Sequence record: OR885871
Source: Escherichia phage vB_EcoM_JN03
Reading direction: 5' to 3' (one strand)
Length of the DNA: 64,000 bases
In this document: in pieces, positions 4,422 through 9,984 of the stretch
Layout: every line of letters starts with the position of its first letter
Position numbering within the stretch: the first letter of the stretch is position 1
Translations under genes and position numbers: made by a program
The notes under the pieces: model-generated
Database searches by the model: none
Told to the model about the DNA's origin: nothing
The model's input: only the letters and a program-made list of their open reading frames with translations

Positions 4422-4860
4422 TTGTTTCTCCTTTTGCTGCATACGACAGAGCTTTTACGATCATAACAGCCAAACCGATAGGATCGTATGCATTGTCGAA
4501 TTCTTGTTCTATGTTCTGACGAATTTCATCAGAAGATTGTACTTCAGAGCAGTTCTTACTCTGTCTGCGTTGCTCTTGCTCGACTAGATCTTTGAACAGA
4601 AGGTCTTTGAAAGAATACTCATCGAAGTTTTCAAGATACCGTTGGATGCTTGGTTGTTTTACATCCATCGTTTGACGCAAATTGCTAATAGTTGAACTTG
4701 CCTGTTCGCGGTGTTTGTTCATAACAGCAAAGTTAACGGGCTTGCCCCAAGCATTCATCACTGGATTAGAGCATACTTGGCCAAAGAGATCTTGGAAGGC
4801 ATCATCCATGTGGATCAACGCAGTGGCCAATTCTTCATAAGTTGGTTTTTGAGTAGTCAT
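4414..4860 (-). CDS. hypothetical protein (148 aa)
   Basis: ORF in minus-strand gene array. Confidence 0.45.
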   Translation of the reverse strand: MTTQKPTYEELATALIHMDDAFQDLFGQVCSNPVMNAWGKPVNFAVMNKHREQASSTISNLRQTMDVKQPSIQRYLENFDEYSFKDLLFKDLVEQEQRRQSKNCSEVQSSDEIRQNIEQEFDNAYDPIGLAVMIVKALSYAAKGETNV

Positions 4861-5228
4861 TTTCGTTTACTCCGATTTTTATATTTCTTAGCCTGACGTT
4901 TATGTTGGGCGGCTCCATATAGGCGCGGCGGCTTTTGATAACGTTGTGACGCAATTATGTCCCTGTCATCGGCTTCTGCTTCACAATACGAGATATCTGC
5001 CTTCCGTAACTGAGCCACCGCTTGAGATACCAATGTTTTGCGTTCACTTTCTACCAGATCATCACAAATTATCATGCGTTCACCTGGTTCACAACGACGT
5101 TTAGGAATATCGTCTACACTGATACATTCTACTTCAACGCCTTTCAGCTTTTCTTGAAGGATAATGGCCATAGTCCGAGCGCCGATTCCTCCTCCAATAA
5201 TTGCAATCTTTCTTGGCTTGTCAGACAT
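4857..5228 (-). CDS. small protein with N-terminal Rossmann-type dinucleotide-binding motif and basic C-terminal tail
   Basis: Start chosen at MSDKPRK; motif KIAIIGGGIGARTMAII (GxGxxG/A); tail KRQAKKYKNRSKRK. Confidence 0.4.
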   Translation of the reverse strand: MSDKPRKIAIIGGGIGARTMAIILQEKLKGVEVECISVDDIPKRRCEPGERMIICDDLVESERKTLVSQAVAQLRKADISYCEAEADDRDIIASQRYQKPPRLYGAAQHKRQAKKYKNRSKRK

Positions 5229-5240
5229 AACACATTCCAT

Positions 5241-5272
5241 AAAAAAGAGGATAGAGCAATAATACCCTATCC
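5241..5272 (-). terminator. rho-independent terminator (minus strand)
   Basis: GGATAG / CTATCC hairpin followed by TCTTTTTTAT on minus strand. Confidence 0.45.
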
Positions 5273-5290
5273 CCATTTATTGAAGAACTA

Positions 5291-5717: not shown

Positions 5718-5915
5718 TCAGCCTTTTAAGTTAAGAATTTCACCAAGGACAGCGTGCAAATGCTTTGCAGATTCAATGTCCAACAGAATGGTGTCATAAA
5801 GACGCCCGTTGTCGTCACTCCCAACCTGCTTTATCACCACTCCCCTGGGGTCTAAGCTCACCAAAGTTTCCTTGGCAGGCGTCGTGTACACAGAGCTAAA
5901 TTTATCAGTGGGCAT
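5718..5915 (-). CDS. hypothetical protein (65 aa)
   Basis: Short ORF tightly packed between neighbours. Confidence 0.3.
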   Translation of the reverse strand: MPTDKFSSVYTTPAKETLVSLDPRGVVIKQVGSDDNGRLYDTILLDIESAKHLHAVLGEILNLKG

Positions 5916-5964
5916 AACAGAACCTTACTCGGTTTGGTTAGCTCCAGTTGGAGCTAACTGTGAA

Positions 5965-6534
5965 TTAGCCTTTGAAGTTAATCGGAGTCTGGACACCAGA
6001 GTCAAATGCGGCCTGGGTGCGGGTGTCACTCACCACCTGACATGTCTTGTCAAGATCGATACGCGGATATCCAAAGATTCCTGCTATCAGAGAACCAGGG
6101 AACTGGCCAAGTTTAGTTTCATAGATCGCACATGCGTCCAATTTTTTAGTTTGGCTAATGCGGAATTCATCCCGACCTGAGCTGATAACAACCTGAATCT
6201 CTTTGTACAAAGATGAATCAAACTGAATATTCTGTTCCTGAATCCATTGCATTACTGCTTTAGAACCGTCTGCGCCATAACGGCCTTGGAAAGTATCTTT
6301 GATCACTTCCTTCAAACCGTTTTTGTACATGTCAGGAATCTGCGCCGTCTCCTGAACTTTGAGCGTGTAGTTGCTCAGGTGGTTTTCAGAATCTTTGTTG
6401 AACTTTTTGACCTGTTGTTCAATGCGGTTGAAGTCATTGAAATAGCTAACCACACTACCAATCCCAATTACAGCAAATGCTAGAATCGCCAACCCAACAA
6501 TCCAACCAATTGAAATACCTTTACGTTGTGACAT
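5965..6534 (-). CDS. LemA-family-like membrane protein
   Basis: N-terminal transmembrane helix; C-terminal segment FPGSLIAGIFGYPRIDL resembles the conserved LemA C-terminal motif (FPsNiaAglFGf). Confidence 0.45.
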   Translation of the reverse strand: MSQRKGISIGWIVGLAILAFAVIGIGSVVSYFNDFNRIEQQVKKFNKDSENHLSNYTLKVQETAQIPDMYKNGLKEVIKDTFQGRYGADGSKAVMQWIQEQNIQFDSSLYKEIQVVISSGRDEFRISQTKKLDACAIYETKLGQFPGSLIAGIFGYPRIDLDKTCQVVSDTRTQAAFDSGVQTPINFKG

Positions 6535-6549
6535 CTTTACTTCCTCTTG

Positions 6550-7659
6550 TTAAAACAAACGTTTATAAGTTCGACCATTGTACTGCATGCGGCCTAATAT
6601 GAAAACTGCGGTAAAAGGGATACATCCAAACAGCACGACGATAATCACTTCCCAAGTTTTAAGATCTCGCCATTTCAGATATTCCATTTCCTTCATCTCA
6701 ACTCGGTTGTATCCCTTACTGATATTGACCGCAACTTCTTGAAACACGGATATGCCCATTGGTTTCCCTGTCAATGAAAGTCCGTTACGAGAATGGAGTT
6801 CCATGTTGTTCATGCCGTCGGCAAATGACGTAGACTTACCCCAATTAATTTTCATATCCTTTGAAATATCGGTGACTACAATAACATCGTTCTTTTTACC
6901 GCCAGACCATGCATATAGAAGTCCCTGAAAATATTCAACAGGCTGGCCAGAAGTCACAACCCAAACGATATTAACCTGACGTGAAGCACCTAATGTTTTC
7001 AGAGTATTGTTCAGATAATCATTCCAGTAATCAACAGGAATGTCCATCCCTGACATATTCAGAACACGAGTTACTCGGTAATAATCATACACCCTCGGAT
7101 ATGAAGGGATATGCTCTTTGAACTTCTCGGCGAATTGCTGGTCAGATTTAGAGAATAATGAATCTTTGTTGCCCAGCACATAATTCATATATGAATGTTC
7201 ACGTGCCGCAGGTTCCCCGATTTTAACTTGTGCCCAACGCGGAGGCTCTGTAGTACCCTGACGATCAATACGGTCAATGCTCAGATCACCGACGGTTGTT
7301 AATACGTCCCAATCAACGTCATAAGAGTGCTCATAGCATGTGCTGCAATGACGCGTTTGTGTACAAGATCGGTTATTTCCTGAACCAGAGCAAGATGTTG
7401 TGTAATAACACATACATTCATAAGAATGTTCACAACCCACCTTATTCCGTTGCTTATCAGTTACATATCCATTCAGGATTTCCACGTCCCCAGAACTACC
7501 AAGGGAGAAAGCAGCATATAATCCCGACTGGATAAGGCAAGACAATACGATAACAATGGCCGTGGCGATCAAAGTCTCCTTTGGCTCATGGGTCTTGCGG
7601 TGATATATTATAAACAAGATGGCCAAAATTACAGGAACCACAAACAGAAGGTAAATCAT
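6550..7659 (-). CDS. Cys-rich membrane protein (two N-terminal and one C-terminal predicted TM helices)
   Basis: Hydrophobic N- and C-termini; cysteine cluster CEHSYECMCYYTTSCSGSGNNRSCTQTRHCSTCYEH. Confidence 0.5.
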   Translation of the reverse strand: MIYLLFVVPVILAILFIIYHRKTHEPKETLIATAIVIVLSCLIQSGLYAAFSLGSSGDVEILNGYVTDKQRNKVGCEHSYECMCYYTTSCSGSGNNRSCTQTRHCSTCYEHSYDVDWDVLTTVGDLSIDRIDRQGTTEPPRWAQVKIGEPAAREHSYMNYVLGNKDSLFSKSDQQFAEKFKEHIPSYPRVYDYYRVTRVLNMSGMDIPVDYWNDYLNNTLKTLGASRQVNIVWVVTSGQPVEYFQGLLYAWSGGKKNDVIVVTDISKDMKINWGKSTSFADGMNNMELHSRNGLSLTGKPMGISVFQEVAVNISKGYNRVEMKEMEYLKWRDLKTWEVIIVVLFGCIPFTAVFILGRMQYNGRTYKRLF

Positions 7660-8476: not shown

Positions 8477-8516
8477 CAAAAAGAAAGGGGAACGGGCTAA
8501 TAATAACCCATTCCCC
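8477..8516 (-). terminator. rho-independent terminator (minus strand)
   Basis: GGGGAATGGG / CCCGTTCCCC hairpin followed by TTTCTTTTT on minus strand. Confidence 0.5.
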
Positions 8517-8544
8517 TTTATTGAAGAACGCAATCGCAATCAGA

Positions 8545-8712
8545 TTACTTTTTCTTCAGCTCTTCCAGTTTGGCTTCGATTTGTTCCAGGATGTCTTTAC
8601 CCTTCTGAACAATCACTTCACCGTCTTGCGCGTGTTTACGAAAGACCAGAGCGCCAGCTACGAAGCCGACAACAACGCCAGGAAGCGCGTACACCAACAG
8701 ATCTTGTAACAT
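8545..8712 (-). CDS. small membrane protein (55 aa), below the ORF-track length cutoff
   Basis: Hand-translated: MLQDLLVYALPGVVVGFVAGALVFRKHAQDGEVIVQKGKDILEQIEAKLEELKKK; preceded by TATAAATA motif and followed by hairpin plus T-run. Confidence 0.4.
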   Translation of the reverse strand: MLQDLLVYALPGVVVGFVAGALVFRKHAQDGEVIVQKGKDILEQIEAKLEELKKK

Positions 8713-8740
8713 GATAATATCCTCACTTTATAGGTGAGGA

Positions 8741-8748
8741 TATTTATA
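8741..8748 (-). promoter_or_regulatory. T4-type late promoter motif TATAAATA (minus strand)
   Basis: Exact TATAAATA about 29 nt upstream of small ORF start at 8712. Confidence 0.4.
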
Positions 8749-9984
8749 TCAGCGCTTCAACAAAGACATGAGGTTTACACTGGTCGACTTCGGATTGTCC
8801 TCTATCTTTCGGACGGGCATTTTCAGATTAGTGTAAACCTCAGATGGTTCCCAACGCGTACCCTGCTGTAAATGCCATATATGTAGAGGAACACCCGTCT
8901 CAAAGAACACAGGCATCTTCCACTTCTGGACGCCAGGAACGTGCCCTGCAGGAGCTTTTTCGCACAACAGGGTATCTGGTAGCCAGAGTGAACGGGCTTC
9001 CCATAATGCCTTACAGGAGTATTCAGGCCAAATACGTTCCATATAATCGATCTCGTCCCATGTACGCTCGGCGTCCCACCCGATGTAACGGGTATTCTTC
9101 AGTCGGAAGAATTTCTTCAGCCAACAAGCACCGGAGGTCTCAAAGTTCAGACGATTGATAAACGTGATGTGGCCAAACTCTTCAACGCATTCCTGAAACG
9201 CTTTCTCAAGGTCGGTTTCGAGTATATCACATTCTTCGTCTGTAATAGGACAACCGTTAATCTTTTTCTTCCCGTGCTTGGTCACCCAATCATCACGGTT
9301 GGATAAGAATGCCGCGCCGTTACGATTGGATTCGCTACCATCACGGTCACGCAACATGAAACCAGGGACGTCTATATCCCATATGTTACCGAAGACCATG
9401 TTCAGGGCTTCCAGGAAGTTCCATGCGCTCAGGCGACCGAAGTATTTCCATGACATCGCCGTATTCCACAGTTCAGTGAACTGGTCTTCCTTGGTAGTGC
9501 ATTCCAACATCCAACGAAAAGAATCCATTTGGGTTTTACCACCCAACCAATCGATATAGGACTGAACGCACGGAATCATCTTCGACTTACGATAACGACA
9601 ATCTGTATCGAAGCGCATACGATCAAAGTTCAGGTTATACCAATCAGAAAATCGCTGAAACTCTTTCGGAGATTGTGGGGGTACAGGAAATTCACTGTAA
9701 ATTGTCCATGGTCCAATCCCATTATAGCAACAACCCCACAAAAAGGCCATCCAAATCTTGCGCTCGATCTTCTCGAGCTGTGTGATGCCTTCTGTAACCT
9801 CTATGGCATAATCCATCAGACGGACTTGCTGGTTATGCTCTTCAGTGTAGGATAGCGCCTCCACCCATGCCTTGAGCAGGTACATGCGATTTTCTGGCTT
9901 ACGATAATCTACTGCCAGATCAATCGGGTATTTCCATTTTTCAGGGGCTTTATACCCCTGCGGCATTTTAGACAGATGCGTCAT
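8749..9984 (-). CDS. Trp-rich enzyme-sized protein, candidate aGPT-Pplase-like thymidine hypermodification enzyme
   Basis: 411-aa Trp/Tyr-rich ORF; sits 0.5 kb from a P-loop kinase and HAD phosphatase; assignment is by context and composition only. Confidence 0.3.
   Translation of the reverse strand: MTHLSKMPQGYKAPEKWKYPIDLAVDYRKPENRMYLLKAWVEALSYTEEHNQQVRLMDYAIEVTEGITQLEKIERKIWMAFLWGCCYNGIGPWTIYSEFPVPPQSPKEFQRFSDWYNLNFDRMRFDTDCRYRKSKMIPCVQSYIDWLGGKTQMDSFRWMLECTTKEDQFTELWNTAMSWKYFGRLSAWNFLEALNMVFGNIWDIDVPGFMLRDRDGSESNRNGAAFLSNRDDWVTKHGKKKINGCPITDEECDILETDLEKAFQECVEEFGHITFINRLNFETSGACWLKKFFRLKNTRYIGWDAERTWDEIDYMERIWPEYSCKALWEARSLWLPDTLLCEKAPAGHVPGVQKWKMPVFFETGVPLHIWHLQQGTRWEPSEVYTNLKMPVRKIEDNPKSTSVNLMSLLKR

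What the first reader, a model, noticed from the sequence alone, without database searches (positions are those of the whole stretch)
5965..7659. LemA-like protein paired with a Cys-rich multi-TM protein
The 189-aa protein has an N-terminal TM helix and a C-terminal FPGSLIAGIFGYPRIDL segment resembling the LemA signature. The gene just upstream encodes a 369-aa protein with three TM helices and a dense Cys cluster. LemA genes in bacteria usually pair with a membrane partner; such a module in a lytic phage is not something I recognise and may act in superinfection exclusion or envelope remodelling.
Basis: inference. Interest (0 to 1): 0.5.

Follow-up and report, generated by a model that had tools for sequence, protein, structure and literature searches.

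The report
Phage LemA-like plus TPM-domain membrane pair
Two adjacent genes of this Vi01-like (Kuttervirus) phage encode very divergent versions of the bacterial LemA protein and its usual TPM-domain membrane partner; the pair is conserved in about 500 large phage genomes, but what it does is unknown, in phages as in bacteria.

Summary
On the minus strand, 6550-7659 encodes a 369-aa protein with three TM helices and seven Cys in a 33-residue stretch. A 189-aa protein with one N-terminal TM helix follows at 5965-6534, after a 15-nt gap.

The LemA idea holds, but only at profile level. Pfam LemA does not hit the window protein. A 45-member family profile aligns to true LemA with 96.8% probability (84.8% without the TM helix; decoys 0.4% or less), and its best PDB hit is LemA 2ETD.

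The pair is adjacent in all 22 loci tested and co-evolves (r=0.74). It occurs in about 500 phage records (ICP1, CBA120, RaK2-like jumbos, Lak). The "virion structural protein" label is unsupported: two virion proteomes of relatives lack it.

The most likely role is an inner-membrane complex with periplasmic domains that acts as a scaffold or chaperone on the host envelope. Superinfection exclusion is untested and less likely. Moderately interesting; a new variant of a known kind.

The parts
6550..7659 (-). Partner gene: 369-aa polytopic inner-membrane protein (TM1, TM2, Cys/His-rich beta domain, TPM-fold domain, TM3, basic tail). CBA120 orf253 / SFP_0195 / Sajous1 gp97 equivalent.
   Evidence: ORF; phrog_2087 E=2.7e-167; 453+ homolog clusters; AF2 model pLDDT 91.1, pTM 0.80
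7600..7659 (-). TM1 of the partner (aa 1-20). N-terminus inferred to be periplasmic.
   Evidence: Hydropathy scan; helix H2-20 in the model; orientation inferred from the basic HRKTHEPKE loop that follows
7498..7575 (-). TM2 of the partner (aa 29-54), inferred to act as a signal anchor that exports the large domain.
   Evidence: Hydropathy scan; helix H26-54
7090..7497 (-). Beta-rich domain (aa ~55-190, boundaries approximate) with no detected relatives. It holds the conserved Cys/His cluster at aa 76-111 (nt 7327-7434): C76, H78, C82, C84, C90, C99, C105, C108, H111.
   Evidence: Long beta strands E57-74, E80-91, E98-108, E114-121; Cys/His conserved in 53-63 of 63 homologs; no Pfam or PDB sequence match
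6670..7077 (-). TPM-fold domain (aa ~195-330, boundaries approximate), including the conserved QVNIvvV...W-x-G-G-K-K-N-D-v block (aa ~228-262).
6586..6654 (-). TM3 of the partner (aa 336-358), followed by a basic cytoplasmic tail (RMQYNGRTYKRLF).
   Evidence: Hydropathy; helix H335-357; the family's C-tail averages 3.4 K+R, net +1.9
6540..6548 (-). Ribosome-binding site AAGAGGAAG in the 15-nt gap between the two genes.
   Evidence: Read directly from the sequence
5965..6534 (-). LemA-like gene: 189-aa bitopic membrane protein. CBA120 orf254 / SFP_0196 / Sajous1 gp96 equivalent.
   Evidence: ORF; phrog_1383 E=8.4e-88; hhalign to bona fide LemA 96.8%; AF2 model pLDDT 80.1
6445..6516 (-). Single N-terminal TM helix of the LemA-like protein (aa 7-30). 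It continues into a 56-residue first helix (H9-64).
   Evidence: Hydropathy; model
6049..6465 (-). Region homologous to the LemA domain (aa 24-162). It includes the family-specific R-Y-G-x-D-G-S motif (aa 85-91) and the FPGSLIAGIFGYPRIDL segment (aa 145-161, nt 6052-6102).
   Evidence: hhalign alignment; profile hit to 2ETD; invariant columns
6040..6132 (-). Span bounded by Cys135 (nt 6130-6132) and Cys165 (nt 6040-6042), inferred to form a disulfide bond.
   Evidence: In 45 homologs, 28 have both Cys, 17 have neither, and none has only one
8484..8519 (-). Terminator-like hairpin (16 pairs plus a T run) upstream of the gene block that contains the pair. Possible upstream boundary of the transcription unit (pattern match only).
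   Evidence: sequence
5247..5274 (-). Terminator-like hairpin (12 pairs plus a T run) two genes downstream of the pair. Possible downstream boundary of the transcription unit (pattern match only).

Best explanation
The two genes are a phage-borne, highly divergent version of the bacterial lemA-TPM two-gene membrane module. Shown: the 189-aa protein is a remote LemA homolog with a single N-terminal TM helix and a helical domain. The 369-aa protein carries a TPM-fold domain between a signal-anchor helix and a C-terminal TM helix with a basic tail, which is the same layout as bacterial LemA-linked TPM proteins. It also has an extra N-terminal TM helix and a family-specific Cys/His-rich beta domain of about 135 residues. 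The genes are always adjacent, in the order TPM partner then LemA-like, and are inherited as a unit. Inferred: both soluble domains face the periplasm, and the two proteins form an inner-membrane complex. By analogy with the roles reported for their relatives (LemA-like domains as membrane-associated scaffolds or remodelling factors; TPM domains as chaperone, adaptor or assembly factors for membrane complexes), the complex acts on a conserved host envelope or inner-membrane component during infection, for example to keep the membrane or a membrane complex functional. It is not a virion component and not a lineage-specific exclusion device. The molecular target is unknown.
Confidence: 0.55

Rival explanations
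1. Superinfection exclusion: the inner-membrane/periplasmic pair blocks DNA injection or the tail lysozyme of later-arriving phages, as T4 Imm and Sp do.
For: Membrane and periplasm location. Position in a non-structural region a few genes from rIIA/rIIB. Carried by virulent phages.
Against: The same module is kept, at 30-45% identity, in very different phage groups infecting different hosts: Ackermannviridae, ICP1, 110-120-kb Vibrio phages, Aeromonas phiAS5-type, RaK2/GAP32 jumbos, Agricanvirus, Lak, Tenacibaculum phages. It also occurs in chromosome-like contexts with cellular neighbours shared between two genomes. By my own knowledge, exclusion proteins are usually small, fast-evolving and lineage-specific. 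It descends from a housekeeping or stress-type bacterial module. There is no match to defence-system models other than a weak hit over the TM/coiled-coil region.
Confidence: 0.1
2. Virion structural protein, as the PHROG/RefSeq label says: the 189-aa protein is part of the particle.
For: phrog_1383 is labelled 'virion structural protein'. Many RefSeq records carry that product name.
Against: The protein has an N-terminal TM helix and lies outside the structural gene block. The LIMEstone1 virion proteome (39 proteins, none beyond ORF174, whereas the pair lies beyond the DNA polymerase ORF178-182) does not list it (the position is inferred). The CsCl-purified Sajous1 virion proteome does not list gp96 or gp97. 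I found no primary evidence for the label. The Erwinia jumbo-phage mass spectrometry used crude lysates and its text does not mention gp47.
Confidence: 0.04
3. Lysis-timing control: the pair senses or modulates the holin/antiholin system through periplasmic domains, like T4 RI/RIII, or protects against premature lysis like rII.
For: Inner-membrane proteins with periplasmic domains. Location 7-8 genes from rIIA/rIIB on the same strand.
Against: No similarity to holin, antiholin or spanin families: only 2 of 63 partner homologs give weak hits to a holin Pfam family. The pair is not next to rII or lysis genes in the ICP1, Deimos-Minion, CBB or metagenomic loci I looked at. Cellular copies exist.
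Confidence: 0.1
4. A periplasmic enzyme or metal-handling protein: the TPM domain works as a phosphatase/nucleotidase, or the Cys/His cluster binds a metal, so the pair changes periplasmic metabolites or ion balance.
For: Some TPM domains show weak phosphatase or ATPase activity and bind Ca2+ or Mg2+ (PMC13456599). The W-G-G-K-K-N-D loop is almost invariant. There are 7 Cys + 2 His conserved. Two cellular copies sit next to a Na+/H+ exchanger and a CDF cation-efflux gene. In CBB/GAP32, TelA and a metallopeptidase lie just upstream.
Against: Reported TPM activities are weak and disputed, and the best-studied members act as adaptors or assembly factors without metal or nucleotide binding. This gives no explanation for the obligate LemA-like partner. 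The neighbour evidence comes from a few loci only.
Confidence: 0.12

Closest known systems
LemA family (Pfam PF04011; structure 2ETD, Thermotoga TM0961; by my own knowledge also magnetosome protein MamQ)
   Same: Size of about 190 aa, a single N-terminal TM helix, and a helical domain with a very long first helix. The profile-profile match covers the whole soluble domain. It has the C-terminal F-P-G-x(3)-A-x(2)-F-G-[FY] motif and an Asn shortly after the TM helix (S-x(2)-N in the phage family, Y-N in LemA). It is encoded next to a TPM-domain gene.
   Different: It is below the Pfam threshold. About 18 residues of the central LemA segment (ENYPxLKA region) are missing and replaced by a family-specific, nearly invariant R-Y-G-x-D-G-S...Q-W-I-Q-E-x-N block. 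A covarying Cys pair is present in 28/45 members. The gene lies downstream rather than upstream of the TPM gene. The fold match to 2ETD is not confirmed.
Bacterial LemA-linked TPM-domain membrane proteins (Pfam PF04536; e.g. the genes after lemA in Thermotoga and Neobacillus)
   Same: TPM alpha/beta/alpha fold. The W-x-G-x-G...N-[GD]-v-hydrophobic loop motif follows a hydrophobic strand. The layout is export signal, TPM, TM, basic tail. The gene is encoded with a LemA-type gene.
   Different: The phage protein is about 120 aa longer. It has two N-terminal TM helices instead of a cleavable signal peptide. A beta domain of about 135 aa with 7 Cys + 2 His sits before the TPM domain (the two bacterial partners have no Cys). 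Its tail is short and basic rather than Gly/Arg-rich. It is below the Pfam threshold.
Characterised TPM proteins: TLP18.3/Psb32 (photosystem II repair/assembly), AscF (mycobacterial CIII-CIV supercomplex adaptor), MOLO-1, YdjH (PspA partner)
   Different: No sequence-level relationship beyond the fold. The partners and targets differ. None is paired with a Cys-rich domain. The target of the phage protein is unknown.
   Same: A membrane protein encoded next to LemA in some bacteria (PMC12631010).
   Different: No DUF2207 signal in the window protein or among the families listed for its 63 homologs at E<=1. The fold found is TPM.
T4 Imm/Sp and rIIA/rIIB (phage membrane proteins for exclusion or protection)
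   Same: Non-structural phage membrane proteins. The pair lies near rIIA/rIIB in Kuttervirus genomes.
   Different: No homology detected. The pair has cellular relatives and a far wider distribution among phages.

Membership tests
LemA family (PF04011) | Matches the Pfam LemA model above its gathering score | tested here: not met
   The window protein gives no LemA hit even at E<=10. Only 5 of 45 relatives hit it, best E=0.0016, all below threshold. None of 86 relatives has a precomputed Pfam domain.
LemA family (PF04011) | Homology to bona fide LemA proteins detectable by profile-profile comparison over the whole domain | tested here: met
   hhalign gives 96.8%, E=2.8e-10, 138 columns. Without TM helices it gives 84.8%, E=6.5e-6, 129 columns; decoys and controls give 0.4% or less. 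The profile vs PDB gives 2ETD as top hit, E=0.0055.
LemA family (PF04011) | Architecture: single N-terminal TM helix followed by a helical domain of about 150 aa; total about 190 aa | tested here: met
   TM at residues 7-30. The model is all-helical: H9-64, H68-82, H87-100, H107-143 plus short helices. The LemA proteins used for comparison are 177-209 aa.
LemA family (PF04011) | Conserved C-terminal F-P-x(4,5)-A-x(2)-F-G-F motif and the preceding Arg/Tyr positions | tested here: met
   FPGSLIAGIFGY aligns to FPGVIFAKMFGF. R121, Y138 and G155 fall on LemA-invariant columns.
LemA family (PF04011) | Four-helix-bundle fold superposable on 2ETD | tested here: inconclusive
LemA family (PF04011) | Encoded next to a TPM-domain (or DUF2207) membrane protein | tested here: met
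   Adjacent to a TPM-fold protein in 22/22 loci. Gene order is reversed relative to those two bacterial examples.
TPM domain (PF04536) | Matches the Pfam TPM_phosphatase model above its gathering score | tested here: not met
   No hit for the window protein. It is the top family among relatives, but only 13/63 at E<=1, best 1.8e-4.
TPM domain (PF04536) | Alpha/beta/alpha sandwich fold matching solved TPM domains | tested here: met
TPM domain (PF04536) | Conserved loop motif W-x-[GI]-G...N-[GD] after the hydrophobic strand | tested here: met
   W251, G253, G254, K255, K256, N257 and D258 are invariant or nearly so. They align to WGIGQKEKNNG of the Thermotoga TPM protein, although that comparison is weak overall (23.8%, E=8.4e-4, 47 columns).
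TPM domain (PF04536) | Phosphatase/nucleotidase activity or metal binding (reported for some members only) | not testable with these tools
   This needs biochemistry. The literature disagrees on whether it defines the family.
DUF2207 (PF09972) | Match to the Pfam model | tested here: not met
   No hit at E<=10 in the window protein. DUF2207 is not among the families listed for the 63 relatives at E<=1.
Virion structural protein (phrog_1383 / RefSeq label) | Detected in purified virions | tested here: not met
   Literature check only. It is absent from the LIMEstone1 virion proteome table and from the CsCl-purified Sajous1 virion proteome (gp96/gp97 absent). No primary source for the label was found.
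Known anti-phage defence / exclusion systems (PADLOC models) | Match to a defence-system protein model | tested here: not met
   The partner gives no hit. The LemA-like protein gives only a weak hit to LeoBC (E=1.1e-4, 19.5 bits) over its TM/coiled-coil region 9-112, which I judge non-specific.

The most novel reading that the evidence does not exclude
The pair is a widely conserved phage tool for taking over the host envelope. A LemA-type scaffold plus a TPM-type chaperone with a redox- or metal-active Cys/His domain would bind a conserved host inner-membrane or periplasmic machine (respiratory, secretion or envelope-stress complex). It would then remodel or protect the membrane during infection, possibly countering membrane-targeting abortive-infection effectors as rII does. 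Because the phage version is compact, abundant, and present in tractable phages (ICP1, CBA120, Vi01), it would give the first direct experimental handle on what the very common bacterial LemA-TPM module does.
Probability: 0.2. Interest if true: 0.7.

Novelty: new variant of a known kind. Interest (0 to 1): 0.4.

Why it matters
LemA and its TPM partner form a very common bacterial two-gene membrane module. I found no established function for the module. This analysis shows that about 1% of sequenced phage genomes carry a recognisable but strongly diverged copy, including model systems such as Vibrio phage ICP1, CBA120/Vi01 and RaK2-type jumbo phages. That has three consequences. (i) It corrects a propagated annotation: the small protein is labelled 'virion structural protein', and in one record 'major capsid protein'. 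(ii) It gives a name, TPM-domain membrane protein, to a 450+-cluster family annotated only as hypothetical. (iii) It offers genetically tractable systems in which the role of the module can be tested by deletion. Selection for the pair across unrelated large virulent phages suggests that it acts on a conserved feature of the Gram-negative envelope.

Tried and rejected
1. Direct Pfam, NCBIfam and PDB sequence scans of the two window proteins gave nothing usable. The partner family profile against PDB sequences also gave nothing.
3. The AlphaFold-database Foldseek library was not available. All three fold-search jobs were then used, so the Cys-rich beta domain could not be searched on its own.
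4. The PADLOC hit to LeoBC was rejected as TM/coiled-coil bias.
5. The exhaustive profile search lists only the best 150 of 1,411 hits, so it could not show whether the tail of the list reaches true LemA proteins. This was replaced by hhalign against a purpose-built LemA alignment.
6. Expression timing could not be determined. There is a single T4-type late-promoter motif, TATAAATA, in 64 kb (2.05 expected by chance), and it lies upstream of a different gene, with a terminator-like hairpin between it and the pair. Sigma-70-like matches are not above chance (11 found vs 14.4 expected). A literature search for Ackermannviridae transcriptomes found nothing useful.
7. I looked for the source of the 'virion structural' label in the Erwinia jumbo-phage and CBB papers without success.
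8. A search for a conserved third gene found only the pair itself and antisense shadow ORFs.
9. There is no copy in 5,426 complete E. coli genomes at the DNA level.

Full report
SOURCE AND OBSERVATION. The window is from a Vi01-like phage. The 4-kb stretch around the finding is 96-98.5% identical to Salmonella/Escherichia Kuttervirus genomes (SFP10, CBA120 relatives, GG32, kage; family Ackermannviridae). The described features are there. The small protein has one hydrophobic helix (about residues 7-30) and the string FPGSLIAGIFGYPRIDL at 145-161. The larger one has three hydrophobic helices (1-20, 29-54, 336-358) and seven Cys within residues 76-108, plus H78 and H111. All of these are conserved in 53-63 of 63 homologs. 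The genes are tightly packed. The partner's ATG overlaps the stop of the upstream gene by 4 nt. Its TAA is followed by AAGAGGAAG and, 15 nt after the stop, by the ATG of the small gene. Terminator-like hairpins on the minus strand at 8519-8484 and 5274-5247 bracket a block of seven small genes that includes the pair (pattern match only). Both are real, selected genes: PHROG matches at E=8e-88 and 3e-167, 86 and 453+ homolog clusters, and 1,411 clusters at 50% identity for the small protein.

IS THE SMALL PROTEIN LemA-LIKE? Direct searches say no. There is no Pfam LemA hit even at E<=10, no NCBIfam hit, and none of 86 relatives has a precomputed Pfam domain. Profile methods say yes. A profile of 45 diverse relatives (A1) has PDB 2ETD ('lemA protein', Thermotoga TM0961) as its best hit, E=0.0055, aligned over 32-160 vs 11-156. 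LemA is the Pfam family most often hit weakly by individual relatives (5/45, best E=0.0016). I then built an alignment of 32 bona fide LemA proteins, all carrying PF04011, and compared profiles. The result was 96.8% probability, E=2.8e-10, over 138 columns. Because a TM helix followed by long helices can produce spurious matches, I repeated the comparison with the TM helices removed. That gave 84.8%, E=6.5e-6, over 129 columns that span the whole soluble domain. Reversed-column decoys and unrelated controls gave 0.4% or less.

THE SAME MODULE AS IN BACTERIA. In the two bacteria sampled (Thermotoga, Neobacillus), lemA is followed directly by a PF04536 gene. Those TPM proteins have the layout signal peptide, TPM, TM, Gly/Arg-rich tail, and no Cys. 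The phage partner keeps the logic of export signal, TPM, TM and basic tail. It adds a first TM helix and the Cys-rich domain, and the gene order is reversed (partner first).

LINKAGE AND DISTRIBUTION. The LemA-like gene lies immediately downstream of the partner, on the same strand, in all 22 loci where this could be tested. These are the window; metagenomic contigs with partner identity down to 28%; ICP1, Deimos-Minion and CBB; 12 of the 13 loci from the species-genome scan (the 13th ends at the contig edge); and three large plasmid-type replicons. Pairwise-identity matrices of the two proteins correlate (r=0.74; Mantel 0/2000). No third gene is conserved with them. One protein, P0239 (553 aa), is a partner::LemA-like fusion, but it is seen on a single metagenomic contig.

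Among 50,697 phage records, 501 encode the LemA-like protein and 486 the partner. The per-genus counts are almost identical (Salmonella 166/168, Escherichia 62/62, Klebsiella 54/55, Erwinia 29/29, Aeromonas 25/26, Acinetobacter 23/23, Serratia 22/22, Vibrio 22/22, Dickeya 19/19). The records span Ackermannviridae, ICP1, 110-120-kb Vibrio phages, Aeromonas phiAS5-type phages, Agricanvirus, RaK2/GAP32/CBB jumbos, Sinorhizobium, Xanthomonas and Tenacibaculum phages, and Lak megaphage. All hosts named are Gram-negative.

The pair is rare in cellular genomes. There are 13 loci in about 185,000 species genomes from a one-pattern scan, and none in 5,426 complete E. coli genomes at the DNA level. A few contexts do look cellular. 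Achromobacter anxifer has the pair next to recA and an MscS-like channel gene. Two different proteobacterial MAG contigs share a Na+/H+ exchanger and a CDF cation-efflux gene upstream of the pair. The pair is also on 0.6-0.94-Mb replicons of Vibrio, Variovorax and Photobacterium whose genes are almost all annotated hypothetical.

TOPOLOGY (INFERRED). In the partner, the short loop between TM1 and TM2 (HRKTHEPKE) and the C-terminal tail (family mean 3.4 K+R, net +1.9) are basic. This places them in the cytoplasm and the 280-residue Cys-rich + TPM region in the periplasm. In the LemA-like family, Cys135 and Cys165 are either both present (28/45) or both absent (17/45), and never present singly. 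That is the pattern expected for a disulfide, hence a periplasmic domain. The order of helices in the fusion protein is consistent with both soluble parts being on the same side. This is inference. It conflicts with models of some LemA-like domains on the cytoplasmic face, and a cluster of 7 Cys + 2 His could also be a cytoplasmic zinc site.

FUNCTION. Nothing here measures function, and the function of LemA is unknown in bacteria too. The literature available to me links LemA-like domains to membrane scaffolding and remodelling (PMC12631010). It links lemA and a TPM gene to an envelope-stress transcriptional response (PMC13236525). It describes TPM domains as chaperone, adaptor or assembly factors for membrane complexes, such as photosystem II repair, the mycobacterial CIII-CIV supercomplex and PspA partners, with disputed weak phosphatase activity (PMC11237479; PMC13456599).

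The database label 'virion structural protein' is not supported for this phage group. The LIMEstone1 virion proteome lists 39 proteins, none beyond ORF174, whereas the pair lies beyond the DNA polymerase ORF178-182 (position inferred). The CsCl-purified Sajous1 virion proteome does not list gp96 or gp97. The genes sit between the DNA polymerase/nucleotide-metabolism genes and rIIA/rIIB.

My best explanation (confidence 0.55 for the identity and architecture, less for the mechanism) is an inner-membrane complex of two co-translated proteins with periplasmic domains. It would act as a scaffold or chaperone on a conserved host envelope or inner-membrane component during infection. Superinfection exclusion is possible, but it fits poorly with 30-45% identity kept across unrelated phages of different hosts and with the cellular copies. 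Roles in lysis timing, periplasmic enzymology or metal handling remain open.

NOVELTY AND SCORE. The kind of system (LemA + TPM) is known though uncharacterised, and the LemA call already exists in a few records. Three things appear to be undescribed in the library I could search: the TPM identity of the partner, the extra Cys/His domain with reversed gene order, and the recognition that this is a strictly linked module spread through about 1% of phage genomes, including model phages. I rate it a new variant of a known kind, with interest 0.4. It is a sound annotation advance and a good experimental entry point to LemA biology, but not a surprise in kind, and it has no mechanism yet.

Noticed in passing
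window 8484-8760, minus strand: The only T4-type late-promoter motif TATAAATA in the 64-kb window (8748-8741) is followed by a hairpin (CCTCACCTATAAAGTGAGG) and a 55-aa hydrophobic ORF (8545-8712). Then comes the strongest terminator-like hairpin of the region (8519-8484, 16 pairs plus a T run). It looks like a small self-contained transcription unit for a membrane peptide, just upstream of the operon with the pair. One motif is not above chance (2.05 expected).
   Followed up: partly
window ~5932-5953, minus strand: A perfect 9-bp hairpin, GTTAGCTCC-AACT-GGAGCTAAC, lies 8 nt after the stop codon of the LemA-like gene, with no T run. It could be an RNA-stability or processing element between this gene and the next (5718-5915).
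   Followed up: no
L031 (CP099927.1), L032 (NZ_LR594690.1), L033 (NZ_CP090497.1): Replicons of 0.6-0.94 Mb in Vibrio parahaemolyticus/vulnificus, Variovorax and Photobacterium damselae are listed as non-mobilizable plasmids. Almost all their genes are annotated hypothetical, and they carry the same phage-type partner + LemA-like pair. They may be giant phage-like extrachromosomal elements rather than ordinary plasmids.
   Followed up: partly
L016 and L017; L018: Two different proteobacterial MAG contigs (177 kb and 667 kb) share a Na+/H+ exchanger and a CDF cation-efflux gene just upstream of the pair. In Achromobacter anxifer the pair sits between a recA-type gene (472 bits to Pfam RecA) with an MscS-like channel gene on one side and unannotatable genes on the other. 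Whether these are true chromosomal copies or islands is unresolved.
   Followed up: partly
L006-L008 (330-kb metagenomic contig) and L029: Known or candidate anti-defence and NAD-salvage genes lie near the pair in large uncultivated phages. L006-L008 carry Acb1 (PF23474), NAPRTase plus a PRPP-synthase-like gene, and a GmrSD_N domain protein. The contig with the fusion protein (L029) carries a Gad2-family gene.
   Followed up: no
L012 (Pectobacterium phage CBB, NC_041878.1 250525-252740): In CBB/GAP32-type jumbo phages, a TelA-like 'tellurite resistance' gene and a putative metallopeptidase lie directly upstream of the pair, on the same strand. This may be a larger envelope-stress or metal-related block in that lineage.
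   Followed up: no
P0029 (Pectobacterium phage DU_PP_V) and many RefSeq phage records: Homologs of this membrane protein are annotated 'major capsid protein' (DU_PP_V) or 'virion structural protein' (many RefSeq records). These look like propagated mis-annotations.
   Followed up: partly
window 4857-5276, minus strand: The longest ORF here (139 aa) starts inside the terminator-like hairpin at 5274-5247. The SFP10 and kage records annotate shorter products (384 and 372 nt), so the true start is probably downstream of the hairpin.
   Followed up: no
window 5965-6534 (protein residues 9-112): There is a weak PADLOC match of the LemA-like protein to LeoBC, the dynamin-like defence-system component (E=1.1e-4, 19.5 bits, profile positions 480-567 of 601). 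I judged it to be TM/coiled-coil bias but did not examine it further.
   Followed up: no
window 8749-9984, minus strand: A conserved 411-aa protein of unknown function (SFP_0190 / kage_185 / Sajous1 gp102) lies upstream of the pair on the same strand. The deposited records give it no functional annotation.
   Followed up: no
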